In this document: positions 2,234 to 59,417 of the stretch, in pieces
Numbering within the stretch: position 1 is the first letter of the stretch
How the letters are laid out: every line of letters starts with the position of its first letter
Notes under the pieces: generated by a model
The model's database searches: none
What the model saw: only the letters and a program-made list of their open reading frames with translations
Told to the model about the DNA's origin: nothing
NCBI GenBank assembly: GCA_018304605.1
Contig: JAGVVU010000034.1
Span: forward strand, 3,555-67,554
DNA length: 64,000 bases
Reading direction: 5' to 3'
Origin: Candidatus Aenigmatarchaeota archaeon
GTDB taxonomy: Archaea > Aenigmatarchaeota > Aenigmatarchaeia > GW2011-AR5
Position numbers and translations under genes: made by a program

Positions 2234-3121
2234 ATGAATTGCAAATGCGGCCGTGATGCCGTTTATCTACGCGTGCAGGAAGGGGTGCATTACTGTCCTG
2301 CATGCTTAAGCAGGCAAACAGAAAGGCAATTCGAGAAAACAATATCCAAGGGAAAAATGCTCGAGAAGAACGACACGGTGGCTGTGGGGGTGAGCGGCGG
2401 GAAAGACTCGATGGTGCTGCTGCATCTCATGAAAAAACTTTCGGAGAAGCTACCGATGAAGCTCATTGCGGTAACCGTGGATGAGGGCATAGCCGGCTAC
2501 AGGGACAGGAGCATTGGGGCGATAAACGAATTCGTAAAAGCCATGGACATAGAGCACCAGACGTTTTCCTTTGAAAATGAATTTGACATTACCATAGACA
2601 ATCTTGTCAAAAACGACCCTTCAATCAAGTCATGCACGTACTGCGGCGTTTTCCGGAGAACCCTCCTCAACAAGGCAGCAAGGGAAGTCAGCGCCACGAA
2701 ACTAGCTGTCGGGCACAATCTTGACGACGAGGCGCAAAGCATACTCATGAACGTGATGCGCGGCGACGTTACCCGGATGGCGCGTCTCGCAAAAACATCG
2801 GAACATTTCGTCCGTCGCATAAAGCCGATGAAAAATATCCCGGAAAAGGAGATTGTGGCATACGCCATACTAAACAACATACCATACTTCGACGGCGAGT
2901 GCCCAAACTCCTTCAACAATGCGCGGCGGGACGTGCAGGCACTGCTCAACAACATGGAGCAGAAATATCCCGGCACGAAAAGCAACGTAATAAGCTTCTA
3001 CAGAAAACTGCCGACATTAGAGGAAAAAGGAATTATCATGCGATGCGCGAAGTGCGGCGAGCCTTCCTCGCATGAAACATGCAAGGCTTGCGAGCTGCTG
3101 GATAAAGTCGGGACAAAGTGA
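2234..3121 (+). CDS. ttuA: TtuA/NcsA-family tRNA 2-thiolation PP-loop ATPase
   Basis: SGGKDS PP-loop. N- and C-terminal CxxC zinc-finger pairs. 295 aa. Confidence 0.8.
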   Translation: MNCKCGRDAVYLRVQEGVHYCPACLSRQTERQFEKTISKGKMLEKNDTVAVGVSGGKDSMVLLHLMKKLSEKLPMKLIAVTVDEGIAGYRDRSIGAINEFVKAMDIEHQTFSFENEFDITIDNLVKNDPSIKSCTYCGVFRRTLLNKAAREVSATKLAVGHNLDDEAQSILMNVMRGDVTRMARLAKTSEHFVRRIKPMKNIPEKEIVAYAILNNIPYFDGECPNSFNNARRDVQALLNNMEQKYPGTKSNVISFYRKLPTLEEKGIIMRCAKCGEPSSHETCKACELLDKVGTK

Positions 3122-3154
3122 CATCTAGAGGCAGTTTTTAAGTGTTTCTGATAT

Positions 3155-3613
3155 TTGCATAGCATGTCAACCGTAGTTATTAAGCGAGCTGAAACGGATG
3201 ATGAAATATTATCGATTATTCCATTAAAGCAATCAGACGATTCTGAATGCATCAAACAACAAGTTCCAGAAGAGGTTGCGCTACAAAGGGTTATCGAATG
3301 GCGCGAGATGCATTATGATGTATGGATGGCAAAAGCGGGGCTTGATGTCGTTGGATATGCCGTCGGCAAGCGGCAAGATGGGGGATATCGCTCCTACGGG
3401 ATCTATGTAGAACCAGCTCATAGAAACAGGGGGATAGGAACCCTTTTAAAAAATGCCCAGATTGAACATGCACGAAAATGCTATTGTGAATACATTTGGT
3501 CAAACGTTTCGGAAAATAATAAACCGAGTATCAGGGTTCAGGAAAAACATGGCTTCGAGTTCGAAAGAAGCGGGGCAGGATACGTTGTTACAAAGAGCCT
3601 GAAAGATTTTTAG
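3155..3613 (+). CDS. GNAT family N-acetyltransferase
   Basis: Motif ...IYVEPAHRNRGIGTLL... typical of the acetyl-CoA binding site. Confidence 0.7.
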   Translation: MHSMSTVVIKRAETDDEILSIIPLKQSDDSECIKQQVPEEVALQRVIEWREMHYDVWMAKAGLDVVGYAVGKRQDGGYRSYGIYVEPAHRNRGIGTLLKNAQIEHARKCYCEYIWSNVSENNKPSIRVQEKHGFEFERSGAGYVVTKSLKDF

Positions 3614-12887: not shown

Positions 12888-14246
12888 TCACGGAATCGCT
12901 CGGAATAAAAAGTTGTATATCGTAAACCAATTGCTCGAAATTGCCGTGCCTGAAGGGATTACCATCCTCAAAATCACGGTGAATGTGGAAGCCGTGCTAG
13001 CCGTGTGATTGATGCCCGTAGTCCCGTTGTACCTGTTTAGTATGTTGAACCTGCCGGTCGTGTTGAAGTTCGTCTCGTTCCTCATCGTCGCATAGAATTC
13101 CGTCTCGCTTGAATTTGCCAGGCTTATGTTGTTGACGCCGTCCGACCAGTTATACATCTTGAACTGTATTATTCCGGGCACGGCCGCGCTGAAGTTGAGC
13201 GTGAAATTGAATTCCCAGTAGTCGGAGCCGTTGATTATTGCCGCGCCTTTTGTTATCATGACAGACGTGCCGTTTATTATGGGCTGCGTGGTTATGTTGC
13301 TATAGGTGCCGAGAACAGAAGACGATACGTTATACATCGTCAAATCGCTGCTGTATAGCGTTGAATTGACTGTTGATGTCGGAAGTGCTGAAAGAGAGGT
13401 ATTGACAAGCATTGTAACAGAAACATTGGCACCTTTTGCCAGAGTTGGCGTGTAAGTCAAATTGACCTCAGTAGTACCTACGTTGGTGCAGACGTCCGTG
13501 GCAACAGGACAAATGTCTATGCTTCTTGCCAGGTCGTTAAGCGTGACGCCTGAAATATTGACGAGAGTATATCCCGAAGGGAGTGTTATCCGTGTCTTGT
13601 TGACTGTCGTGACACCAGTGATCGTGAAATTATACACTATCGTCTGGTTCGTCACGTTCGTATCTACATAATTAGGCCGCATCGTCACGTTCGCATGGAC
13701 ATCCCTTGTCTCGCCCAAGCCTGAAGATATCGGGAAGCTGCCTGAAACCGTCTCATTGGTGCCTATGCTTGCCGCGCTCGTTATGTTCGCAGAAATATTC
13801 GCGATCACGGGAGCTGTTATGTTGAGACGGAATACGACCAAGAGCCTGACTGCATTGGCCGTGCCAACCTGTATCGGGCCTACGGTAATATTTGTCAAAT
13901 TTATTCTCGTCTGATTGCCGAATGTTATGTTGCTGCCGAAGAGCGTCGTGTCATTCGAATGAAAAATCCCGTCCCCGTCCGTGTCATTGTATATGCTGAC
14001 ATTCACGACGAAAGCGGAAATATTATTGGCTTCGACGGTAGTATAAGGAGTGCTGAAATTTACCAAAATCGAGGTCAGGTTGATCGTGGAATTGGCAGCG
14101 AGCAGCGATATGTTGAGCATCGTGACGTTGTCGCCGGAATTAATATAGCGGGGAACCTGGCTTGTCCCGCTGACCGTCAAAGTGGCGTCTGCGAAGACTG
14201 GGCTGACCAGAAATGCCAATACAAGAACAACTATGAGCGCTTTCAT
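12888..14246 (-). CDS. Secreted, heavily N-glycosylation-sequon-rich surface protein (S-layer candidate)
   Basis: Signal peptide MKALIVVLVLAFLVSPVFA. About 60 N-x-S/T sequons in 452 aa. Confidence 0.65.
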   Translation of the reverse strand: MKALIVVLVLAFLVSPVFADATLTVSGTSQVPRYINSGDNVTMLNISLLAANSTINLTSILVNFSTPYTTVEANNISAFVVNVSIYNDTDGDGIFHSNDTTLFGSNITFGNQTRINLTNITVGPIQVGTANAVRLLVVFRLNITAPVIANISANITSAASIGTNETVSGSFPISSGLGETRDVHANVTMRPNYVDTNVTNQTIVYNFTITGVTTVNKTRITLPSGYTLVNISGVTLNDLARSIDICPVATDVCTNVGTTEVNLTYTPTLAKGANVSVTMLVNTSLSALPTSTVNSTLYSSDLTMYNVSSSVLGTYSNITTQPIINGTSVMITKGAAIINGSDYWEFNFTLNFSAAVPGIIQFKMYNWSDGVNNISLANSSETEFYATMRNETNFNTTGRFNILNRYNGTTGINHTASTASTFTVILRMVIPSGTAISSNWFTIYNFLFRAIP

Positions 14247-14668: not shown

Positions 14669-14844
14669 CGTCCCCGGCGCGATTCGAACGCGCGACCCCC
14701 TGCTTTCCCGGACGACGCATTCGAAGAATGCGTCAGTCTATCTCTCAGATATGATGTCATCATCACACAACCCGCCGGCTGTGCTCTGTTCACCTCCATA
14801 CCTGATAGGAGGCAGGTGCTCTATCCAAGCTGAGCTACGAGGAC
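14669..14844 (-). tRNA. tRNA-Arg(CCU) with an intron of about 100 nt in the anticodon loop region
   Basis: Acceptor GTCCTCG/CGGGGAC. D arm GCTC-AGCTTGGATA-GAGC. Anticodon stem CCTGC/GCAGG with loop CTCCTA+A. T arm GCGCG-TTCGAAT-CGCGC. The intron contains the perfect hairpin GACGCATTCTTCGAATGCGTC. Confidence 0.7.
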
Positions 14845-15176
14845 TTACAGTAAAAGTATACGGAAATCGTTAAAAATAACCCAAATCCATAGATTACCAA
14901 TGGAAATCGGGTTCATCGGCGGCTTCATCATTCTTGGCGCCTGGATATACGAGGCCTACCTTTCATGGAAAAAAGGCGAAACGCCCGACATAAAATTTAT
15001 CCTCGCGTATGTCGTAGGACTTTCGTTCTTGACATATTACACATTCCAGATAAAGGATATGCCTCTCCTTTTCTTAAATGGCGCAATACTCTCCCTTACG
15101 CTTCTCGAGCTTGATCTGGCGCTAAGGCAGCGACATAAAAAGAAAAACAAGCGGCGCCAAACCAGAAAGTCGTCGG

Positions 15177-17369: not shown

Positions 17370-18638
17370 TCACTCAGAACCGATTATGTCTTTTATCCTC
17401 TTGATATTCCTTATCTCTACCTCCTTCTCATTGCCGCTTGCCATGTTCCTCAGCTTGACGACCCCGCTCTTCGCTTCCTTCTCACCGACAACGATTGAGT
17501 ATTTTATCCCCTTTGAATTGACATATTCCAGCTGCTTGCCCAGACTTCTTGCAGATACATCGTATTCTGCATTTATGCCGAGCTCCCTGAGCTGCTTTGC
17601 TATTTCCACGCAAAATGCTTTTGAGCCTTCGTCCACGTTTGACAGATAAACTGCAACCTTCGTCTTCCCGAAATCAACCTGTATGAAGCCCATCAGCCTG
17701 TCGACGCCGAGCGATATGCCTGTTGCCGGTGTTGGTTTGCCGCCGAACGCCTCTATCATCCTGTCGTAACGACCGCCTGCTGTAATTGTCAGCTCGCTGC
17801 CGCGCTGCATAATCTCGAAGATGTTTCCAGTGTAGTATTCCAGGCCGCGCACCATGCTCATGTCCACCTCGGCAGAAAACCCGAATTTTTCAAGTCCCTT
17901 AAGCAAAACATAAAGCTCATCTATGCCCTCCTTGCCACTTTCGTCTTTTATGAGTGGAGAGGCTTTTTTCACGTCGGTTATTTTCACGAACCTCATTATT
18001 TCCTTTACCTTATCCTCGCTGACGCCCTTGCCTTTTAGCTCCTCCACGACTTCCTTCTCCCCTATCTTGTTCAGCTTGTCCACCGTCCTCATCACGCTGA
18101 CCGAATCAGCTCCCAGCGAATCCAAAAAAGAGCTTATTATCTTCCTGTTGTTTATGCGAACGTAGAAATTTGACAGTCCAATCTTTTGCAAAACGCTGCA
18201 CGCGCACGCGACCACTTCCACGTCGGCTTCTGGACCTGCTGCGCCTACTATATCTACGTCAGCCTGGCAGAATTCCCTGTAACGCCCAGCGCCCGGGCGG
18301 TCGTACCGCCAGACCGTGCCGAGCTGATAGCGGCGGAATGGCTTCGGCAGGTTAGGATTGCTGGCGGCAACGCGACAAAGAGGTACTGTGAAGTCAAAAC
18401 GCAGGCCAAGCTCCCTGTCACTTTTGTCTTTGAAATAGTAAATCTCATCCTTTATCGCTTCCCCGCTTTTTGCAGTCAATAGCGCGAAGTCTTCAAATGC
18501 AGGCGTATCGAGCGGGTCGAATCCCCAGCTCTCGAACACGGCACGCGCCGTGTCTAAAATAAACTGGCGCTTTATCATGTCCTCAGGCAGAAGATCTCTC
18601 GTGCCGCGTGGCGGCTGGAATTGTGCCATATCTATCAC
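17370..18638 (-). CDS. hisS: Histidyl-tRNA synthetase
   Basis: Class II motifs: PRGTRDLLP, LRFDFTVP, GGRYD. Confidence 0.9.
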   Translation of the reverse strand: MIDMAQFQPPRGTRDLLPEDMIKRQFILDTARAVFESWGFDPLDTPAFEDFALLTAKSGEAIKDEIYYFKDKSDRELGLRFDFTVPLCRVAASNPNLPKPFRRYQLGTVWRYDRPGAGRYREFCQADVDIVGAAGPEADVEVVACACSVLQKIGLSNFYVRINNRKIISSFLDSLGADSVSVMRTVDKLNKIGEKEVVEELKGKGVSEDKVKEIMRFVKITDVKKASPLIKDESGKEGIDELYVLLKGLEKFGFSAEVDMSMVRGLEYYTGNIFEIMQRGSELTITAGGRYDRMIEAFGGKPTPATGISLGVDRLMGFIQVDFGKTKVAVYLSNVDEGSKAFCVEIAKQLRELGINAEYDVSARSLGKQLEYVNSKGIKYSIVVGEKEAKSGVVKLRNMASGNEKEVEIRNIKRIKDIIGSE

Positions 18639-20520: not shown

Positions 20521-21312
20521 GTGATAACTATGGAGAGTGTGTACTTAGGAATTAGAAAGAATAAATTGAAGGCTGTAAAACTTCAAGAGAATAATAAATA
20601 TTTAGGACTTGCTTCTCTTACAGAAGGTTTCAAAAATTCAAGTGTTAGGTTACCAACAAAACTGACTCCGGAATTGGGGGAAGAAATCGGCATTCATATA
20701 GGTGACGGACATTTATCATCTAATCGTTACAGGTACAAACTTTTCGGTAACATAGACGAATCTGAATATTACGAGAATTTTGTGGCTGGATTGTACCAAA
20801 GGCTATACAACATAAACGTGAGATTAGAAAAAAGAGAAAGAGATGGTAATATCATAGGGTTTGAATTTTGTTCTAAACCCGTATGGATTTTCAAAACAAA
20901 AACCATCGGATTGATAACAGGTAGAAAAGACAATGTGTCAGTTCCCATCCTAATTCTAAACTCTAACCCGGCAATTTTGCGGGCATTCGTAAGAGGCTTA
21001 TTCGATACAGACGGGAATCTTTATTTCCAAAGCAGATATGGCTACAAAAACTACTATCCTCTTATTTCTCTTACATCCAAGTCAAAAGATTTATGCAAGT
21101 CGACATGTGAAATTCTGACAAAACTTGGATTCAAGGCAAATTATTACACAACACGAAATGAGGCAGTTGTCCAATTATATGGATATGAAAATCTTTTGAA
21201 ATATGCAAGTGAAATCGGGTGGCACAATACTAAACAGCTCAATAGATTCCTTGATTGGAAAAAACGCTTTCCGAATCTTGTGGAAAAGAAAAGGGCAGCT
21301 ATCGGGATTTGA
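20521..21312 (+). CDS. LAGLIDADG-family (double-motif) homing-endonuclease-like protein
   Basis: Motifs IGIHIGDGHL and LRAFVRGLFDTDGNL. Paralogue of the gene at 57008-57757. Its last 19 nt are antisense to the 3' end of tRNA-His. Confidence 0.7.
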   Translation: MITMESVYLGIRKNKLKAVKLQENNKYLGLASLTEGFKNSSVRLPTKLTPELGEEIGIHIGDGHLSSNRYRYKLFGNIDESEYYENFVAGLYQRLYNINVRLEKRERDGNIIGFEFCSKPVWIFKTKTIGLITGRKDNVSVPILILNSNPAILRAFVRGLFDTDGNLYFQSRYGYKNYYPLISLTSKSKDLCKSTCEILTKLGFKANYYTTRNEAVVQLYGYENLLKYASEIGWHNTKQLNRFLDWKKRFPNLVEKKRAAIGI

Positions 21313-21386
21313 ACCCGACCCGAAAGCTTTCTGTCAGCATAAGCTGGCCACAGGCTTGCATGCTACCAAGCTACACTATAGCTGCC
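21294..21386 (-). tRNA. tRNA-His(GUG) with encoded G-1 and an intron of about 19 nt after position 37
   Basis: G-1 opposite discriminator C73. Acceptor GCAGCTA/TAGCTGC. D arm GTGT-AGCTTGGTA-GCAT. Anticodon loop CTGTGG. T arm TCGGG-TTCAAAT-CCCGA. Confidence 0.7.
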
Positions 21387-21435
21387 ATTTGCCTATAGAG
21401 TGTATAAGAAAACATATTTAATAAAGAAGTGGGCA

Positions 21436-22616: not shown

Positions 22617-25451
22617 ATGAACAAGTCTCATGAAGATGAAATTAAACGCTTTTGGGGGAGCCGGGACATCTATGCCAAGGCGAAGGCCGACAGGCGCGGG
22701 GCGTCGGCCACTACCAGCAGGAAAAAATTCTATTTCTTGGACGGACCGCCATATGCGACCGGCAGCATCCACATGGGAACCGCCTGGAACAAGATTCTCA
22801 AGGACGCTTACATACGTTTCTGGAGAATGACGGGATTCGACGTCTGGGACCAGCCGGGATATGATACGCACGGACTGCCAATAGAAAACAAAGTAGAGAA
22901 GGATTTCCAGATAAAATCGAAGAGCGACATAGAAAAGCTTGGTATAGAAAAATTCATCCATGAGTGCAGGAAATTCGCGACAAAATACATAGACATCATG
23001 AACGCGCAGTTTGCAAACTTGGGCGTATGGATGGACTGGTCAAACCCGTACCTGACGCTTAACAACGAATACATAGAGGGCGCATGGCACACGTTCAAGA
23101 TCGCATTCGAGAAAGGCCTGCTGTATCAGGGACTGTATCCAGTCCATGTTTGCCCGCACTGCGAGACAGCCGTCGCCTACAATGAGATAGAATACACCAA
23201 GGTAACCGACCCCTCTGTTTATGTCAAGTTTCCGGCAAAAGGCGGCGAATTCCTCCTTATATGGACTACAACGCCGTGGACATTGCCAAGCAATACAGGC
23301 ATAATGGCCAAGCCGTCCGCTGATTATGTGAAAGTAAAGATCGGGGATGAGACGCTAATCATGGCGAAAGACCTGATGGATGACGTCATGAAGAGGGCTG
23401 GTGTAACAAGCTACAAGATAGTAGGGACCATGAAGGGGAAAAAGCTCGCGGATATGGAATATGATCATCCTCTAAAGGATATTTTCAGGTTCCAAGAGCC
23501 CGTCAAGCACCGCGTAGTTCTGTCCGAACAATATGTCGATCTGGAGAGCGGCACGGGTCTCGTTCACACTGCTCCGGGGTTCGGGCAGGAGGACTACAAG
23601 GTCGGTGTCGAAAATGGACTGGCAATAATATCCCCGCTGAAACTTAACGGGACGTTCAACGAGACTTGCGGGCAATTCGCCGGGATGTACGCGAAAACGG
23701 CGGACAGGAAAATAATGGACATTCTCAAGGAGCGCGGCCTGCTTCTTCACGAGGAGAAAGTCACTCACGATTATCCGCTTTGCTGGAGGTGCAGTTCACC
23801 GCTCCTGGAAATGGCTGTCAGCCAGTGGTTCTTCAAGGTGACTCAGATAAGAAAAGATCTTCTGAGGGAGAACAAAAAAGTGAACTGGTATCCGGAATGG
23901 GCCGGACAGAGATTCGAGAATTGGCTGAATAGCCTGGGCGACTGGCCGATATCAAGGCAGCGCTACTGGGGAATACCGCTCCCCATCTGGACGTGCGCAT
24001 GCGGTGAAGTCAAGATAATAGGCTCGTCGAGCGAACTGCCTTCAAAGCCAAAAGACCTTCACAGGCCCTATATAGACGCAATCAAACTTCCTTGCAAGTG
24101 CGGGCAGCAGATGACGCGCATCCAGGATGTCCTTGATGTCTGGTTCGACTCGGGGCTTGCGAGCTGGGCGTCTCTTGGCTATCCGGACAAAAAAGAATCC
24201 TTCGAGGGCATGTGGCCTGCCGACCTTAACATAGAAGGTCCGGACCAGATAAGGGGCTGGTGGAATTCCCAGTTGATAACCAGCGTGATAACGTTCGGTC
24301 GCGCCCCGTTCAAGAACATACTGTTTCACGGATTCACGCTGGATGTCCACGGATCGAAGATGTCAAAGAGCAAAGGCAATGCGACTGCACCCGAGGAAGT
24401 GATCGACAAATACGGCAGGGATGTTCTAAGGCTTTACCTGCTCTCTTCGCCCCCATGGGACGACTTCGTATTCAAATGGGCAGACGTGGACGGCATAGCA
24501 AAATCATTCATGGTTCTCGAGAACACCTACAATTACGTCAAGACATATGTTCCCAAGGCGAAAAAAGTGAAAAACCTCGAGCCTGAGGACGCCTGGATAC
24601 TTTCAAGGCTGAACGCGCTTGTTGACGAAGTTACAAGACACTACAAATCATACAACATACATCGTGCTGCTAACTCAATAACAAGCTTCATGCTCGAGGA
24701 CTTTTCCCGTGTATACATAAAAATGGTGCGGGACCGCGTATGGCCTACATACAATGAAAGCGACAAAGCATCGGCCGCGTTCGCGCTCCTTGAAGTCGCA
24801 AGAGAATGCTCAAAACTTCTCGCGCCAATGTGCCCGTTCTTCTCCGAGCATGTCTACCAGACGTGCGGACTTGGCAAGGAAGAGAGCGTGCACATGTGCA
24901 AATGGCCAAAGCCGTACAAAAAATATGCCAACCTTCAGATCGAGAAAGAGATGAAAATAGTGCAGGAAATAATCGAGGCCGTAAACGCGGCAAGGAAGGA
25001 AAATAACGTGAAAATAAGATGGCCGGTTGAGAGCGTGCATATAGAGACCGAGGATGAAACCGCGAAAAGCGCCGTGATAACATTTGAAAAAGTCCTGAAG
25101 AATATGACCAACTCGAAAGATGTGTCTATGGGAAAAACAGATGGCTATGAAAAAGACTTTTCCAAAGGCAAGATTTACGTTAGCAAAAACATTCTCAAGA
25201 ACGAGGCACTGCTGAGAGAGCTCTTCAGGGAAGTGCAGAGCCAAAGGAAGCAGAGCAAGCTGAATGTCGAGGATAAAATAGTGCTTTATCTCGACAATGA
25301 TTCGATGCAGGAGTTTGAAAAGGAAATAAAGGACAAGGTTGGCGCAAAGAACATCGTGTTCGGACCTGTTGGCAATCCCACTGGACATGTGCGTATTGAA
25401 GAGGAAAAAATATCCTTCAAGATCGAGGTCCTGCAGAAAATATACGACTAA
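22617..25451 (+). CDS. ileS: Isoleucyl-tRNA synthetase
   Basis: HMGTAWNKI (HIGH-type). WPISRQRYWGIPLPIW. KMSKSKGN. Confidence 0.9.
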   Translation: MNKSHEDEIKRFWGSRDIYAKAKADRRGASATTSRKKFYFLDGPPYATGSIHMGTAWNKILKDAYIRFWRMTGFDVWDQPGYDTHGLPIENKVEKDFQIKSKSDIEKLGIEKFIHECRKFATKYIDIMNAQFANLGVWMDWSNPYLTLNNEYIEGAWHTFKIAFEKGLLYQGLYPVHVCPHCETAVAYNEIEYTKVTDPSVYVKFPAKGGEFLLIWTTTPWTLPSNTGIMAKPSADYVKVKIGDETLIMAKDLMDDVMKRAGVTSYKIVGTMKGKKLADMEYDHPLKDIFRFQEPVKHRVVLSEQYVDLESGTGLVHTAPGFGQEDYKVGVENGLAIISPLKLNGTFNETCGQFAGMYAKTADRKIMDILKERGLLLHEEKVTHDYPLCWRCSSPLLEMAVSQWFFKVTQIRKDLLRENKKVNWYPEWAGQRFENWLNSLGDWPISRQRYWGIPLPIWTCACGEVKIIGSSSELPSKPKDLHRPYIDAIKLPCKCGQQMTRIQDVLDVWFDSGLASWASLGYPDKKESFEGMWPADLNIEGPDQIRGWWNSQLITSVITFGRAPFKNILFHGFTLDVHGSKMSKSKGNATAPEEVIDKYGRDVLRLYLLSSPPWDDFVFKWADVDGIAKSFMVLENTYNYVKTYVPKAKKVKNLEPEDAWILSRLNALVDEVTRHYKSYNIHRAANSITSFMLEDFSRVYIKMVRDRVWPTYNESDKASAAFALLEVARECSKLLAPMCPFFSEHVYQTCGLGKEESVHMCKWPKPYKKYANLQIEKEMKIVQEIIEAVNAARKENNVKIRWPVESVHIETEDETAKSAVITFEKVLKNMTNSKDVSMGKTDGYEKDFSKGKIYVSKNILKNEALLRELFREVQSQRKQSKLNVEDKIVLYLDNDSMQEFEKEIKDKVGAKNIVFGPVGNPTGHVRIEEEKISFKIEVLQKIYD

Positions 25452-36748: not shown

Positions 36749-36897
36749 TGGGCTCGGGCGGATTCGAACCGCCGACCTTTGCCGTATCTTCAACCAATCC
36801 TTTGCGTTCTTTCCGTTAACGCTTTCTTTAAAGAAGGGGTTAGTGAAGGCAACGTCATCTCGTGCCTGATTTTCAGGTACCACTAGACTACAAGCCC
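36749..36897 (-). tRNA. tRNA gene with about 76 nt of intronic insertion (D-loop hairpin insertion CCTGAAAATCAGG plus a further insertion), isotype unresolved
   Basis: Acceptor GGGCTTG/CGAGCCC with discriminator A. D arm GTCT-AGTGGTA. T arm GGCGG-TTCGAAT-CCGCC. Variable loop AGGTC. Followed by TTTT. Confidence 0.55.
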
Positions 36898-39670: not shown

Positions 39671-39806
39671 GGGCCGGTAGCTTAGCTTGGTAGAGCATCT
39701 GTCTTATATGACGTGCTTTGATAATAAACAAAATCAAAGCATTTGGCGTGACATCGTCATTGTCTAAGCCAGCAGAAGGTCATGAGTTCAAATCTCATTC
39801 GGCCCA
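39671..39806 (+). tRNA. tRNA with anticodon UAU (Ile, AUA-reading) if spliced at the canonical 37/38 site; intron of about 63 nt
   Basis: Acceptor GGGCCGG/TCGGCCC with discriminator A. D arm GCTT-AGCTTGGTA-GAGC. Anticodon stem TCTGT/GCAGA with loop CTTATA|intron|A. T arm ATGAG-TTCAAAT-CTCAT. The intron has an 8-bp hairpin GCTTTGAT/ATCAAAGC. Confidence 0.6.
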
Positions 39807-56124: not shown

Positions 56125-56729
56125 GCTTTAATCATCTTTACCTTACCGTTCTTAACAAAAGCCGCACCGCCTTCTCTTATTTTCACGTATTTGTATCCGG
56201 TCTTTTTCAAGTCTTCCATAACTTTTGTATATGGCTTGGAGTATTTCTTATTTCCGAAATGAGGCAAAGGTACAAAACCAACAAGATTAAGTCCCTTGAA
56301 TGACTTGAGCTTTGCTTTGGAAGGGTCGTCCAGAAATCTTATGGAACGTATATTAGTACCTGCAACAGCCGCTCCTGCGCTCGAGCCGACATAAATCTTG
56401 CCTCCTCTAAGAAGTTTCTTAATAATCTTATCGAAACCAGATTCCCTCATTTTCTGCAAGAGGTAGAATGTATTTCCGCCAGCAACATAAATTATGTCAA
56501 ATTCGTTGAGTTTTTTTAACAAATTACTCTTTTTCATCCCTTTCAGGTCAACTGTGACCAACCTAAATCCTTTCTTTGTCAGAATTTTTCTATCTGCCCT
56601 GATCCACCACTTATCTTTGTAAGGGTCAGCTGCTGTCGGTATAAAGGCGAGCTTCAGTTTCGTCTTTGACTTTTGAATTGCTTTATCTACCAAACTAGAA
56701 GCATCAGAAGCCAGCAAGATATCGGTCAT
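56121..56729 (-). CDS. Peptidase E / S51-family dipeptidase
   Basis: IYVAGGNTFYLL and GSSAGAAVAG motifs. Confidence 0.65.
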   Translation of the reverse strand: MTDILLASDASSLVDKAIQKSKTKLKLAFIPTAADPYKDKWWIRADRKILTKKGFRLVTVDLKGMKKSNLLKKLNEFDIIYVAGGNTFYLLQKMRESGFDKIIKKLLRGGKIYVGSSAGAAVAGTNIRSIRFLDDPSKAKLKSFKGLNLVGFVPLPHFGNKKYSKPYTKVMEDLKKTGYKYVKIREGGAAFVKNGKVKMIKA

Positions 56730-56784
56730 AATCCTAACATGACGATTTCCTTTTAAATATTCCGCAAAAAGTTATTAGAGTCAT

Positions 56785-56899
56785 GCCCTGGTAGCTCAGC
56801 AGGTAAGAAGCTAGGCTTCTCTATAAAGAGCGCTTGAGATTTTAGGAATCGGCGAAGCTGTTAACCAAGAGGTCCGCGGTTCGAGCCCGCGCCGGGGCG
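56785..56899 (+). tRNA. tRNA-Asn(GUU) with two short non-canonical introns (about 22 nt in the D-loop, about 20 nt at position 30/31)
   Basis: 73-nt mature tRNA plus 42 nt. Acceptor GCCCTGG/CCGGGGC. D arm GCTC-AGCAGGTA-[AGAAGCTAGGCTTCTCTATAAA]-GAGC. Anticodon stem CTTG[intron]G/CCAAG with loop CTGTTAA. Variable loop AGGTC. T arm CGCGG-TTCGAGC-CCGCG. Confidence 0.6.
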
Positions 56900-57042
56900 C
56901 AAGGTAGCTCAGCTCGGGAGAGCACATAGTGTGAGGAAAACCTCATATTAGCTTAAACGGCTGAAGTTTAGGCAGGAACCGTACTGTAAAACACTGGTTT
57001 TATAGGTTTAAGCTGTCGAGGGTTCAAATCCCTCTCTTCCCA
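56900..57042 (+). tRNA. tRNA-like gene with about 70 nt of insertions; acceptor pairing and anticodon unresolved
   Basis: Canonical D arm GCTC-AGCTCGGGA-GAGC. Stem CTTAA/TTAAG flanked by a 9-bp helix AGCTTAAAC/GTTTAAGCT. Variable loop CTGTC. T arm GAGGG-TTCAAAT-CCCTC. The 5' CGCAAGG does not pair cleanly with the 3' TCTTCCC. Confidence 0.4.
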
Positions 57043-57757
57043 CTGCAATTTCAACTTTCCTTATATGTTTAGGATTATGAAATCCAATTTTTCCCATCCA
57101 GTTCTTTGCGTTTTTTCTTCCATTGATATAAATTCTACTTCCTTTAGAAGAGAAACCTCGATTGTCATTAACGATGGTGTCATATTCTGTATACATTGAG
57201 AACCCCATTTCTTTTAGAATTAATTCTAATTGTTCAACAAGTTTACGACTCTTCTGTTTTACTGAAATTACAGGATAATTATGTCCTTGTTTTTTTAATG
57301 ACACGGAACCATCAGTGTCGAAAAGTCCTCGAATGAATGGAATTATGAATTTTTTATTTTTGAGAATAAATTTGGGTATTTCTATGTTATCTTTTGGTCC
57401 AATATTGAATCCTATATCTTTTAGGAAATAAAATAATCCTTTTGATCTTGTTATAATTCGGATTGTATTTTGACCCTTCAGCTTTACGGGTTTTAATTTT
57501 ATATTGAATACCCTGAAAATTAAAGGCACTATAAAATTATCTATATACTCTTTGTCGTCAGTAAAGGAGCACGTTATAGAAATAGAGTATTCTGATGCCG
57601 TGCCGCCTTTAAACCGGTATTTGTTAATGCTTCCGTCACCTGTCATAATGCCTAAAAATTCTGCAAGTTCTTCAGATAAAACTACAGGCAATTGTAGACC
57701 TTTTCTTTTATCTCCGTAAGTAATGATTGATTTCATGTGATCACTTATGGACTTCAA
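57008..57757 (-). CDS. LAGLIDADG-family (double-motif) homing-endonuclease-like protein
   Basis: LAEFLGIMTGDGSI and IPFIRGLFDTDGSV. The C-terminal 12 codons are antisense to the T-arm of the tRNA-like gene. Confidence 0.7.
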   Translation of the reverse strand: MKSISDHMKSIITYGDKRKGLQLPVVLSEELAEFLGIMTGDGSINKYRFKGGTASEYSISITCSFTDDKEYIDNFIVPLIFRVFNIKLKPVKLKGQNTIRIITRSKGLFYFLKDIGFNIGPKDNIEIPKFILKNKKFIIPFIRGLFDTDGSVSLKKQGHNYPVISVKQKSRKLVEQLELILKEMGFSMYTEYDTIVNDNRGFSSKGSRIYINGRKNAKNWMGKIGFHNPKHIRKVEIAVGREGFEPSTA

Positions 57758-58635: not shown

Positions 58636-58793
58636 AGTTGGCTGGCTTTTTAAAGTTAAGTTAAAAACAGATAAAAGAAGTGGACAAAGGGCACCAGACT
58701 GTCGACTAGGCGCTGAAAGCGTCATGTTTGTTTGATGCTCGTCTGACTTACATAATTCAAAATGGTTCAGATCAGTCGACTTCTGTGATTTTT

Positions 58794-59417
58794 ATGCCAA
58801 AAAAACACAAGCAAAATCAAGACCAAAAAATAGAACAATCAGAGGACTTCGAGAGGAGGGAATATGTCGAGCCTGAGCCAGTAAAAGTCGTAGTTGACAC
58901 GCTCCTTGCAGAAGACAAGGTAATCGCTGTCGAGAATCGTGAGCATATCTATGAACCGGGCTATTACGGCAAGGATCTTGGCGAGAGGCTCGAGCTGGCT
59001 TTGGTCGAAGCGGTCCTGCTGCTCAAGCGCGGCAGGATAAAGGTGTCCTCCCTGGGAAAACAGCTGTCATTCAAGGAACTTTACGACCATGCATGCTCCA
59101 TGGACAAGAGATTCCCTCATAAATACAGGGTATATGAAGACCTGCGTGAGAGAGGGCTGCTGGTAAGGACGGGCTTCAAATTCGGCTGCGATTTTCGCGT
59201 ATATGAAAGAGGGGTACAACTGAAGAAAGGGCCAAAATCGGCAAAGGAACACACGAAATGGATAGTCTTCTCGGTGCCAGAGGACTTCACTATGTCTTTC
59301 GCCGAGCTTTCGAGAAGTGTAAGGTTGGCGCACAACATACGTGCCCGCATGCTCTGGGCTGTTGTTGACAACGAGGCTGATGTGACTTTTTATCAGATCA
59401 CTCGCCACAAACCGTAG
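58794..59417 (+). CDS. endA: tRNA-splicing endonuclease (EndA) catalytic subunit
   Basis: YRVYEDLRERGLLVRTGFKFGCDFRVYE and KEHTKWIVFSVPED...LAHNIRARMLWAVVD catalytic-domain motifs. Start set at the internal Met (MPKKHK). Confidence 0.75.
   Translation: MPKKHKQNQDQKIEQSEDFERREYVEPEPVKVVVDTLLAEDKVIAVENREHIYEPGYYGKDLGERLELALVEAVLLLKRGRIKVSSLGKQLSFKELYDHACSMDKRFPHKYRVYEDLRERGLLVRTGFKFGCDFRVYERGVQLKKGPKSAKEHTKWIVFSVPEDFTMSFAELSRSVRLAHNIRARMLWAVVDNEADVTFYQITRHKP

What the first reader, a model, noticed from the sequence alone, without database searches (positions are those of the whole stretch)
20521..21386. LAGLIDADG endonuclease gene ending antisense inside the 3' end of intron-containing tRNA-His
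The 263-aa double-LAGLIDADG ORF on the plus strand terminates with its TGA stop inside the antisense T-loop (gggatTTGAaccc) of the minus-strand tRNA-His. The overlap is 19 nt.

The same geometry recurs at 57008-57757 with a paralogous LAGLIDADG protein and a tRNA-like gene. This suggests a targeted association rather than chance.

Free-standing LAGLIDADG genes tied to tRNA 3' ends, in a genome whose tRNAs carry several non-canonical introns, could mark a homing system that targets tRNA genes. The intron-less alleles could be the targets, and the system may be linked to the spread of the small tRNA introns. Alternatively the tRNA 3' ends could be integration sites.
Basis: partly seen in the sequence, partly recalled or inferred. 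Interest (0 to 1): 0.75.

Follow-up and report, generated by a model that had tools for sequence, protein, structure and literature searches.

The report
Homing endonuclease genes docked on tRNA genes
Two intact LAGLIDADG endonuclease genes in this Aenigmarchaeota genome each run into the 3' end of a tRNA gene (His, Phe), and they belong to a large DPANN-archaeal family that almost always sits on one specific tRNA gene and seems to spread by overwriting resident tRNA genes.

Summary
ORF 20521/20530-21312(+) is a single-chain LAGLIDADG endonuclease with intact catalytic residues. Its TGA lies in the antisense T-loop of tRNA-His(GUG) (21294-21386, minus strand), a 19-nt overlap. The paralog 57008-57757(-) reads 35 nt into a plus-strand tRNA, which is tRNA-Phe(GAA), not Asn.

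This is not chance. In 74 of 78 assessable DPANN loci the stop end of a homolog touches a tRNA gene, against 16/222 other ORFs and 0/56 viral homologs. Protein clades track tRNA identity: His, Arg-GCG, Arg-UCG, Ser-GCU, Thr, Ile-GAU, Met, Phe. The geometry varies: same strand at the tRNA 5' end, convergent at the 3' end, downstream, or inside a tRNA intron (once).

In at least eight relatives, a direct repeat of the tRNA terminus plus flank brackets the gene. The outer copy is a dead remnant, and in L004 it comes from a different tRNA-His allele. tRNA-His sites without the gene also exist.

Best reading (about 0.7): free-standing homing endonuclease cassettes that target tRNA genes and carry a replacement tRNA or tRNA end. 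Cleavage was not tested. A link to the spread of small introns is not supported. Domestication remains a rival, because purifying selection is strong and presence in close relatives is stable.

The parts
20521..21312 (+). LAGLIDADG endonuclease gene W1 (His clade). GTG at 20521; the likely real start is ATG at 20530 (260 aa). TGA stop at 21310-21312.
   Evidence: ORF. Pfam PF14528. P0001 (260 aa, 99% identity). Invariant D62, K136 and D164. AlphaFold model with pLDDT 88. Foldseek hits to I-Tsp061I, I-DmoI and VMA intein endonucleases.
21294..21386 (-). tRNA-His(GUG) with encoded G-1 (21386) and C73 (21294). A 19-nt intron after position 37 lies at 21329-21347.
   Evidence: Rfam tRNA, 44 bits. 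Sequence read. Alignment with the intron-less orthologs L001 and L004.
21294..21312 (.). 19-nt overlap. The last six codons plus the stop of W1 (R-A-A-I-G-I-*) are the antisense of C73, the acceptor 3' strand, the T-stem and part of the T-loop. The preceding codons E-K-K-R are the antisense of the tRNA's oligo-T tract.
   Evidence: Sequence. The same TGA occurs in L001 and L004. In L003 the T-loop is TTCGAAT with no TGA, and the ORF runs on so that the overlap reaches 37 nt.
57008..57757 (-). LAGLIDADG endonuclease gene W2 (Phe clade). ORF from TTG at 57757; the database copy P0066 (242 aa) implies a start at 57736. TAA stop at 57008-57010.
   Evidence: ORF. Pfam 2.3e-14. 32% identity to W1. 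P0066 at 100% identity, labelled Candidatus Aenigmarchaeota.
56898..57042 (+). tRNA-Phe(GAA) with at least two introns plus an extended variable region. D-arm 56905-56925, anticodon loop CTGAAG at about 56962-56967, T-arm 57018-57034, acceptor 3' strand 57035-57041, A73 at 57042. The 5' acceptor strand in this window is 4 nt short compared with sibling assemblies.
   Evidence: T-arm scan. Sequence. Orthologous tRNA-Phe in L101 and L102. Sibling assemblies L175-L182.
57008..57042 (.). 35-nt overlap of the W2 C-terminal codons (G-R-E-G-F-E-P-S-T-A-*) with the antisense acceptor, T-arm and variable region of tRNA-Phe.
   Evidence: Sequence.

Best explanation
W1 and W2 are free-standing, catalytically competent single-chain LAGLIDADG homing endonuclease genes of a large DPANN-archaeal family. 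Each clade of that family is dedicated to one tRNA gene: W1 to tRNA-His and W2 to tRNA-Phe.

Proposed mechanism.
1. The enzyme recognises the DNA of its cognate tRNA gene near one end. Remnant breakpoints in relatives point to the D-arm side or the T-arm side.
2. It cuts alleles that lack the cassette.
3. The break is repaired from a cassette-bearing allele.
4. The cassette (promoter, endonuclease ORF, then the tRNA or its terminal segment plus a few flank bases) is copied in.
5. The tRNA stays functional, and the displaced end of the resident tRNA is left as a decaying remnant beyond the ORF.

The ORF has no stop of its own. It reads through the former tRNA flank (the antisense of the oligo-T tract, which gives the Lys/Glu-rich tail) into the tRNA until the first in-frame stop. 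Here that stop is the TGA in the antisense of the T-loop TTCAAAT. The overlap is therefore a by-product of the docking, not a regulatory device.

Shown: the protein class and intact active site, the family-wide tRNA docking, clade-to-tRNA specificity, the flanking repeats and remnants, empty sites, an intron-borne member, and the mosaic phylogeny.

Inferred: DNA cleavage, the position of the target site, and ongoing homing. The two window copies show no remnant and look like old, stably inherited insertions.
For: (1) Protein. Two LAGLIDADG motifs are present. D62, D164 and K136 are invariant in 22 diverse members. The model (pLDDT 88) matches I-Tsp061I, I-DmoI and VMA-intein endonucleases.

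(2) Docking. 74 of 78 assessable GTDB loci from Woese-, Pace-, Nano-, Micr-, Iain- and Aenigmatarchaeota have a tRNA at the ORF stop. Controls are 16/222 and 0/56.

(3) Specificity. Protein clusters coincide with tRNA identity.

(4) Flanking direct repeats of the tRNA terminus plus flank occur in relatives:
- L057, 34-37 nt, z=12.8.
- L059, 25 nt, z=11.7.
- L063, 35 nt, z=7.6.
- L006, 26 nt, z=6.6.
- L017 and L049, read by hand.

In L004, from the W1 clade, the remnant is the T-arm, the acceptor 3' strand and C73 of a different tRNA-His allele. Only the LAGLIDADG ORF lies between the repeats.

(5) L028 has two different tRNA-His alleles in tandem, and only the first is linked to the endonuclease gene. 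L043 and L046 have tRNA-His without the gene.

(6) In L048 the ORF lies inside a 761-nt intron of a tRNA, fused to the 5' exon, and a 10-bp helix closes the intron.

(7) Mosaic. The rotamase gene, W1 and the tRNA-His exons group the window with L001. The HTH gene and IleRS group it with L003. Bootstrap support is 91-100%, which puts a breakpoint beside the tRNA-His 5' end.

(8) Decayed copies exist: an in-frame stop in L065 and a frameshift in L094.
Against: - No cleavage assay exists, and no target site is defined.
- The window copies have no tRNA-derived flanking repeat.
- All six close relatives of W1 that were found carry the gene (L001-L005, L094), so no presence/absence polymorphism is seen at close range.
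- The gene is under strong purifying selection. dN/dS is about 0.08-0.2 with synonymous sites saturated, and dN is similar to IleRS and HisRS.
- Across 24 genomes its core is more conserved (mean 50% identity) than the adjacent HisRS (40%), and the two sets of distances correlate (Mantel p about 5e-4). That would also fit a vertically inherited host gene.
- The cassette-bearing allele keeps an intact tRNA, so how it would escape self-cleavage is unexplained.
Confidence: 0.7

Rival explanations
1. Domesticated LAGLIDADG protein. The family started as homing endonucleases but is now kept by the host for a job tied to the neighbouring tRNA gene. Possible jobs are gene conversion or repair of the tRNA gene, control of its transcription, or help with pre-tRNA processing. 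It would be inherited vertically with the tRNA.
For: - Strong purifying selection, with dN comparable to IleRS and HisRS.
- The core is more conserved than HisRS over 24 genomes, and the distances correlate.
- The order LAGLIDADG, tRNA-His, HisRS is conserved in 24 of the fetched loci plus the more dispersed window arrangement.
- Every close relative of W1 carries the gene.
- The WhiA structures among the fold hits show that LAGLIDADG folds can be domesticated.
Against: - Only a subset of tRNA genes carries the gene (2 of 6 in the window), and different genomes carry it on different tRNAs.
- HEG-free tRNA-His sites exist.
- There are remnants of overwritten tRNA alleles, pseudogenised copies, four different geometries, and a topology conflict with flanking genes.
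- The catalytic residues are retained, unlike in WhiA.
Confidence: 0.2
2. Integrase-type mobile element. tRNA ends serve as att sites of an integrative element, and the LAGLIDADG gene is merely cargo.
For: Direct repeats containing the tRNA terminus flank the gene in several relatives. This is formally the attL/attR pattern of tRNA-integrating elements.
Against: - The segment between the repeats is only about 0.8-1.2 kb and holds only the LAGLIDADG ORF and its promoter.
- No recombinase gene is called next to W1, W2 or their orthologs.
- The repeats include non-tRNA flank, and in L004 and L049 they are diverged alleles rather than identical att cores.
Confidence: 0.03
3. Collaborative homing with small tRNA introns. 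The endonuclease cuts intron-less tRNA alleles at the intron insertion site, the intron protects its own allele, and the two spread together.
For: - The window tRNA-His and tRNA-Phe both carry introns.
- The Ile-GAU clade tRNAs nearly all carry two introns.
- One relative, L048, sits inside a tRNA intron.
Against: - Orthologous HEG-linked tRNA-His genes in L001 and L004, and most same-strand His and Arg-GCG loci, have no intron.
- tRNA genes of the window without the endonuclease also have introns.
- Remnant breakpoints lie in the D-arm or T-arm, not at the anticodon-loop intron site.
Confidence: 0.05
4. Coincidence from genome compaction. Genes overlap their neighbours in tiny genomes, and two LAGLIDADG ORFs happen to abut tRNAs.
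For: DPANN genomes are compact. 16 of 222 unrelated ORFs also end within 110 nt of a tRNA.
Against: 65/77 against 16/222 in the same loci. The pattern recurs across six DPANN phyla with clade-specific tRNA identity.
Confidence: 0.01

Closest known systems
Archaeal intron-encoded single-chain LAGLIDADG endonucleases (I-DmoI, I-Tsp061I, I-PorI)
   Same: Same fold and the same single-chain two-motif design. They are the best structural matches. They are archaeal and target highly conserved stable-RNA genes. The relative L048 sits inside an intron of a stable-RNA gene, as they do.
   Different: Those enzymes lie inside bulge-helix-bulge introns of rRNA genes on the sense strand. W1 and W2 are free-standing, lie outside the mature tRNA on the opposite strand, and overlap its 3' end. 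The targets here are tRNA genes.
Free-standing homing endonuclease genes of fungal mitochondria that replace a gene's 3' end and leave a partial duplicate (for example cob and atp6 C-terminal duplications next to LAGLIDADG/GIY-YIG ORFs, PMC6279837; Allomyces atp6, from my own knowledge)
   Same: The endonuclease ORF abuts or fuses to the end of an essential gene. The cassette supplies a replacement end, and the displaced native end remains beyond the ORF as a dead partial copy. This is the architecture seen in L004, L006, L017, L049, L057, L059 and L063.
   Different: The hosts there are protein-coding mitochondrial genes. Here they are chromosomal tRNA genes of archaea, either end can be replaced, and clades are specialised on single isoacceptors.
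Phage T4 SegB (GIY-YIG) in the tRNA gene cluster (PMC13096335; original work known to me from memory)
   Same: A free-standing homing endonuclease whose locus and cleavage targets lie in tRNA genes, giving preferential inheritance of the linked tRNA region.
   Different: A different nuclease family, in a phage rather than a cellular genome. There is no ORF-tRNA overlap and no one-clade-one-tRNA pattern.
Homing endonucleases in group I introns of bacterial tRNA genes (for example LAGLIDADG in cyanobacterial tRNA-Arg(CCU), PMC13011429)
   Same: tRNA genes serve as homing targets, and the endonuclease family correlates with the tRNA anticodon.
   Different: Those genes are embedded in self-splicing group I introns in the anticodon loop. 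Here no ribozyme is involved, and the gene usually sits outside the tRNA.
WhiA/DUF199 (domesticated LAGLIDADG transcription factor)
   Same: It has the LAGLIDADG fold (fold hits). It is a conserved, vertically inherited host gene, which is the model for the domestication rival.
   Different: WhiA lacks the catalytic acidic residues and has a C-terminal HTH domain. W1 and W2 keep both catalytic Asp residues and have no such domain.

Membership tests
LAGLIDADG homing endonuclease, single-chain (I-DmoI type) | Two LAGLIDADG motifs in one polypeptide | tested here: met
   GIHIGDG (57-63) and GLFDTDG (159-165) in W1, with equivalents in W2. Pfam PF14528 is above its cutoff for both proteins.
LAGLIDADG homing endonuclease, single-chain (I-DmoI type) | Two alpha-beta-beta-alpha-beta-beta-alpha domains packed through the LAGLIDADG helices | tested here: met
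   The AlphaFold2 model has pLDDT 88 and pTM 0.85, with helices 50-62 and 150-164 each followed by beta hairpins. Foldseek matches I-Tsp061I at 2.7e-10 and I-DmoI at about 3e-7. This is a prediction, not a solved structure.
LAGLIDADG homing endonuclease, single-chain (I-DmoI type) | Catalytic acidic residue at the C-terminal end of each LAGLIDADG helix | tested here: met
   D62 and D164 are invariant in 22 diverse members, and K136 is also invariant. They sit at the ends of helices 50-62 and 150-164.
LAGLIDADG homing endonuclease, single-chain (I-DmoI type) | Site-specific double-strand cleavage of a site of about 20 bp, leaving 4-nt 3' overhangs | not testable with these tools
   This needs purified protein and substrate DNA.
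LAGLIDADG homing endonuclease, single-chain (I-DmoI type) | Mobility: occupied and empty alleles of one defined site, with co-conversion of flanks | tested here: inconclusive
   For: empty tRNA-His sites in L043 and L046, a tandem HEG-linked plus HEG-free tRNA-His in L028, remnants of overwritten alleles, and a mosaic phylogeny at the W1 locus. Against: no occupied/empty pair was found among close relatives.
Archaeal intron-encoded homing endonuclease (bulge-helix-bulge intron resident) | The ORF lies inside an intron of the target RNA gene, on the sense strand | tested here: not met
   W1 and W2 lie outside the tRNA on the opposite strand. The feature is met only in the relative L048.
Free-standing homing endonuclease cassette with target-gene end replacement | The ORF abuts the end of the target gene, and a displaced partial copy of that end lies beyond the ORF | tested here: inconclusive
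   Abutment is met in the window. The displaced copy is not found in the window. It is present in relatives, including the W1-clade loci L004 and L005 and L006, L017, L049, L057, L059 and L063.
tRNA-integrating element (integrase-mediated) | A tyrosine or serine recombinase gene within the element | tested here: not met
   No recombinase is found among the neighbours. The repeat-bounded units hold only the LAGLIDADG ORF.
WhiA-like domesticated LAGLIDADG protein | Loss of catalytic acidic residues and gain of a C-terminal HTH domain | tested here: not met
   The catalytic Asp residues are invariant. LAGLIDADG_WhiA scores below its cutoff (15.6 against 23.2 bits), and no HTH domain is found.

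The most novel reading that the evidence does not exclude
The cassettes act as gene drives that carry their own tRNA and overwrite the resident tRNA genes of DPANN archaea. Repeated cutting and patch repair at the D-arm and T-arm sides would then be a main cause of the unusually disrupted tRNA genes of these lineages: non-canonical introns, intron-embedded ORFs as in L048, tandem or dead tRNA fragments, and perhaps split tRNA genes. A conserved LAGLIDADG, tRNA-His, HisRS block would then be a drive that has reached near-fixation across several phyla.
Probability: 0.15. Interest if true: 0.85.

Novelty: new variant of a known kind. Interest (0 to 1): 0.66.

Why it matters
Homing endonucleases are known in archaeal rRNA introns and inteins, in bacterial tRNA group I introns, and in phage and organelle genomes. 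This finding points to a large, tRNA-dedicated family in cellular DPANN genomes, with about 1,500 clusters at 50% identity scoring E<=1e-30.

Each clade appears locked onto one isoacceptor gene, and the tRNA stays alive because its end is replaced rather than protected by an intron. I found no description of this in the paper library searched.

If confirmed, it would matter in four ways:
- It gives a concrete agent of tRNA-gene turnover and horizontal exchange in ultrasmall archaea.
- It supplies a set of natural meganucleases with predictable targets of about 20 bp in tRNA genes.
- It flags an annotation pitfall. Gene callers extend these ORFs through tRNAs, and tRNA finders miss many of the intron-rich partners.
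- It offers a testable link between selfish nucleases and the origin of disrupted tRNA genes.

Tried and rejected
(1) Empty-site search. I scanned metagenome contigs with the tRNA-His 5' 17-mer GGCAGCTATAGTGTAGC. That gave 12 hits, but only one real tRNA-His locus (L094). It carries the gene, apparently frameshifted, so the scan gave no empty site among close relatives.

(2) Viral contigs. 70 LAGLIDADG hits were only 23-35% identical and none was next to a tRNA. They served as a negative control, not as a vector.

None was found around W1 or W2. The 13-nt inverted repeat 21290-21302 / 21378-21390 is just the acceptor stem plus AAA.

(4) Acceptor-stem symmetry. I considered that both geometries arise because the acceptor stem reads the same from either end, with a fixed codon phase at the junction. 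The phase is not conserved across His-clade loci, so I dropped this as an argument.

(5) Identifying the W2 tRNA. Brute-force intron deletion followed by ARAGORN gave many conflicting anticodons. Orthologs solved it instead.

(6) 5' editing of tRNA-Phe. I considered that its mismatched 5' acceptor strand is a substrate for Thg1-like 5' editing. Eight sibling assemblies have a perfect acceptor stem, and the window lacks 4 nt, so this was rejected.

(7) ARAGORN identity calls for intron-rich tRNAs are often wrong, for example Pro for His, and Ser, Leu, Glu or Thr for Ile-GAU. I corrected them by reading the anticodon loops. The 'SeC-UCA' calls in the Arg-UCG clade remain unresolved.

(8) Rfam at E<=10 on 56600-57200 did not recover tRNA-Phe (14.6 bits).
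Full report
What is in the window. ORF 20521..21312(+) encodes a 263-aa protein. It is probably 260 aa from the ATG at 20530, because the 99%-identical database copy P0001 has 260 aa. It matches Pfam LAGLIDADG_3 (1.4e-10) and, among solved chains, the endonuclease domain of a V-ATPase intein.

On the minus strand, Rfam finds a tRNA at 21294-21385 (44 bits). ARAGORN in bacterial mode calls it Pro(UGG). The loop CUGUGG, the encoded G-1 (21386) and C73 (21294) identify tRNA-His(GUG), and intron-less orthologs are called His. Alignment to the intron-less L001 places a 19-nt intron at 21329-21347.

The paralog 57008..57757(-) is 249 aa and 32% identical (E 3e-28). It reads 35 nt into the 3' end of a plus-strand tRNA whose T-arm is 57018-57034 and whose A73 is 57042. 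Rfam and ARAGORN miss this tRNA. Orthologous loci L101 (72% protein identity) and L102 (55%) show that it is tRNA-Phe(GAA) with introns in the anticodon stem, at 37/38, and an extended variable region. tRNA-Asn(GUU) is the separate upstream neighbour at 56785-56899. The 100%-identical database protein is labelled Candidatus Aenigmarchaeota.

The proteins. An alignment of 22 diverse members has G61-D62-G63, R158, G159, F161-D162-T163-D164-G165 and K136 invariant. The AlphaFold2 model (pLDDT 88, pTM 0.85) has the two LAGLIDADG helices (50-62 and 150-164) ending at D62 and D164. By Foldseek it is closest to the TliVMA intein endonuclease, I-Tsp061I and I-DmoI, with WhiA further down the list. By sequence and predicted fold these are intact single-chain LAGLIDADG nucleases. 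Cleavage itself was not testable.

The association is family-wide.
- Close relatives of W1 (56-83% identity; L001-L005) keep the convergent overlap with tRNA-His. The tRNA has an intron in L003 and none in L001 and L004. Where the T-loop is TTCGAAT and so has no TGA, the ORF runs on to a 37-nt overlap.
- More distant relatives (about 46% identity; L006, L007) sit upstream of tRNA-His on the same strand and overlap its 5' end. L008 does the same at tRNA-Arg(UCG).
- A scan of one genome per GTDB species returned 80 DPANN loci, and at least 393 relatives exist.
- ARAGORN plus a T-arm motif places a tRNA at the stop end of the ORF in 70 of the 80 loci. Manual reading adds L031, L065, L067 and L087. 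Two loci end at the contig edge, which gives 74 of 78 assessable.
- In the same loci only 16 of 222 other ORFs of at least 150 aa end within 110 nt of a tRNA. None of 56 viral LAGLIDADG homologs has a tRNA within 110 nt of either end.
- A profile search finds 1,471 representatives of 50%-identity clusters at E<=1e-30.

Clades follow tRNA identity. Average-linkage clustering of the core region separates the following groups:
- a His clade, which includes W1;
- a sister Arg-GCG clade;
- an Arg-UCG clade;
- a Ser-GCU clade;
- a Thr-GGU pair;
- a convergent clade whose tRNAs all contain ACUGAUA and are tRNA-Ile(GAU) with two introns, which ARAGORN mislabels;
- a Met-CAU pair;
- the Phe clade of W2.

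In 24 of the fetched loci the order is LAGLIDADG, tRNA-His, HisRS. In the window, HisRS lies about 2 kb away at 17370-18638.

The geometry varies. 59 loci have the tRNA on the same strand at its 5' end, and at least 11 are convergent at its 3' end. L027 and L044 have the ORF downstream of the tRNA.

In L048 (Micrarchaeota) the ORF 2411-3202 lies inside a 761-nt intron. The tRNA halves have a perfect 7-bp acceptor stem and a perfect 5-bp anticodon stem. The ORF is fused in frame to the 5' exon, and a 10-bp helix (GCGCAGAAGC/GCTTCTGCGC) closes the intron.

Evidence for insertion by end replacement. A search for similarity between the ORF-stop/tRNA junction and the region upstream of the ORF found significant direct repeats:
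- L057: 34-37 nt, z=12.8.
- L059: 25 nt, z=11.7.
- L063: 35 nt, z=7.6.
- L006: 26 nt, z=6.6.
- Weaker but clear by eye: L017, L049, L004 and L005.

Each repeat consists of the terminal 13-23 nt of the tRNA plus 5-18 nt of its outside flank. In the convergent type this is the 3' end through the T-loop or T-stem. In the same-strand type it is the 5' end through the D-arm. The outer copy sits just upstream of the endonuclease promoter and is not part of a tRNA.

In L004, a W1-clade locus, the remnant is CTGGGTTCGAATCCCAGCCGTGGCCC. That is a T-arm, an acceptor 3' strand and a His-type C73, but from a different allele than the functional tRNA (CCGAGTTCAAATCTCGGCGGCGGCCC). In L028 two different tRNA-His alleles stand in tandem, and only the first is linked to the gene. 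L043 (tRNA-Arg(GCG), tRNA-His, HisRS) and L046 have tRNA-His with no endonuclease gene.

Only the LAGLIDADG ORF lies between the repeats, and no recombinase is nearby. This is the pattern described for free-standing endonuclease genes of fungal mitochondria, where a partial C-terminal duplicate of cob or atp6 lies beyond the endonuclease ORFs (PMC6279837). The window copies themselves show no remnant. For W1 the upstream gene starts only 58 nt away.

Why the stop lies inside the tRNA. The codons just before the tRNA are the antisense of the tRNA's oligo-T tract (GAA AAG AAA AGG, giving E-K-K-R in W1). The tail is poorly conserved and has low confidence in the model. The frame relative to the tRNA differs between loci. 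The stop is simply the first one met. The overlap is therefore best read as a by-product of docking.

Selfish or domesticated? Synonymous sites between W1 and its relatives are saturated, while dN is 0.13-0.34. That is close to IleRS and HisRS of the same genomes, and dN/dS is about 0.08-0.2 where it can be computed. Across 24 genomes the LAGLIDADG core is on average more conserved than HisRS (50% against 40% identity), and the distances correlate (Mantel p about 5e-4). These points fit a maintained function.

Against pure vertical descent, the locus is mosaic. The rotamase gene (bootstrap 91%), W1 (99.7%; four-point test 88%) and the tRNA-His exons group the window with L001. The HTH gene (99%) and IleRS (100%) group it with L003, so a recombination breakpoint lies beside the tRNA-His 5' end. 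Some pairs are far more similar in the endonuclease than in HisRS, for example L011/L025 at 66% against 34%. Decayed copies also exist: an in-frame stop in L065 and a frameshift in L094.

I therefore rate a homing-type cassette at about 0.7 and domestication at about 0.2.

HEG-linked tRNA-His genes with and without introns are orthologous. All six tRNA genes of the window contain introns, but only two carry the gene. Remnant breakpoints are not at the anticodon-loop intron site. There is no support for a role in spreading small introns.

Literature. Searches of the held library found tRNA group I intron endonucleases in bacteria (PMC13011429), SegB in the T4 tRNA region (PMC13096335), archaeal group I introns (PMC6125680) and the fungal cases. 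They found nothing on tRNA-docked LAGLIDADG genes in DPANN archaea. Absence from this library is not proof of novelty.

Verdict. The feature is a new variant of a known kind, namely free-standing homing endonucleases. Interest is moderately high. The decisive experiment is a cleavage assay on HEG-free against HEG-linked tRNA alleles.

Noticed in passing
window 56892-56905: The tRNA-Phe 5' acceptor strand reads CGCAAGG and mismatches the 3' strand at positions 1 and 3. Eight independent sibling assemblies (L175-L182) read ...CCGGGGCG-CC-GGGAAGG-TAGCTC with a perfect stem. The window therefore lacks 4 nt (CGGG), which is either an assembly or sequencing error or a strain-specific lesion. In the siblings tRNA-Asn and tRNA-Phe are only 2 nt apart.
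   Followed up: yes
window 14669-14845(-), 36749-36897(-), 39671-39806(+), 56785-56899(+): Every tRNA gene in the window is interrupted, several by large or non-canonical introns: a 63-nt intron at 39671-39806, and about 100 nt of inserts in the genes at 14669 and 36749. Only two of the six were found by Rfam at its gathering threshold, and one by ARAGORN. The identities of the genes at 14669 and 36749 were not resolved.
   Followed up: partly
window 58728-59417(+): The tRNA-splicing endonuclease gene EndA (PF01974 and PF02778) lies about 1 kb from W2. EndA is also within 0.7 kb of the Phe-clade gene in L102, although the intervening genes differ. This may be mere synteny.
   Followed up: no
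window 17370-18638(-) and 22617-25451(+): HisRS lies 2.7 kb from tRNA-His, and a class I (IleRS-type) synthetase lies 1.2 kb on the other side. In 24 other DPANN loci HisRS directly follows tRNA-His, giving the order LAGLIDADG, tRNA-His, HisRS.
   Followed up: partly
L001 1315-2735: A close relative carries a reverse transcriptase (RVT_1) plus an Rfam RT-16 RNA (53.5 bits) between the rotamase gene and the small 54-aa gene. This insertion is absent from the window.
   Followed up: no
L006 4168-4276: In this groundwater DPANN lineage tRNA-His has C at -1 (no encoded G-1), A73 and an encoded CCA. This implies post-transcriptional G-1 addition, unlike the window's tRNA-His with encoded G-1 and C73.
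   Followed up: no
L048 2411-3269: The LAGLIDADG ORF lies inside a 761-nt intron of a Micrarchaeota tRNA and is fused in frame to the 5' exon. The tRNA is probably Thr(UGU) with U73, and a second small intron lies on the other side of the anticodon loop. I know of no described protein-coding archaeal tRNA intron. The identity and the exact splice sites were not settled.
   Followed up: partly
L104 3238-3318: In a Phe-clade relative the tRNA-Phe T-loop itself is interrupted by an insert of about 28 nt, and the endonuclease ORF reads through it.
   Followed up: no
proteins P0223 (1931 aa) and P0233 (1351 aa): Two very long proteins contain 2-3 full matches to the family profile. They may be tandem copies read through, or inteins. 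They were not examined.
   Followed up: no
window 12888-14246(-): A 452-aa secreted-looking protein is extremely rich in N-x-T/S sequons and has no Pfam match. It may be a glycosylated surface protein.
   Followed up: no
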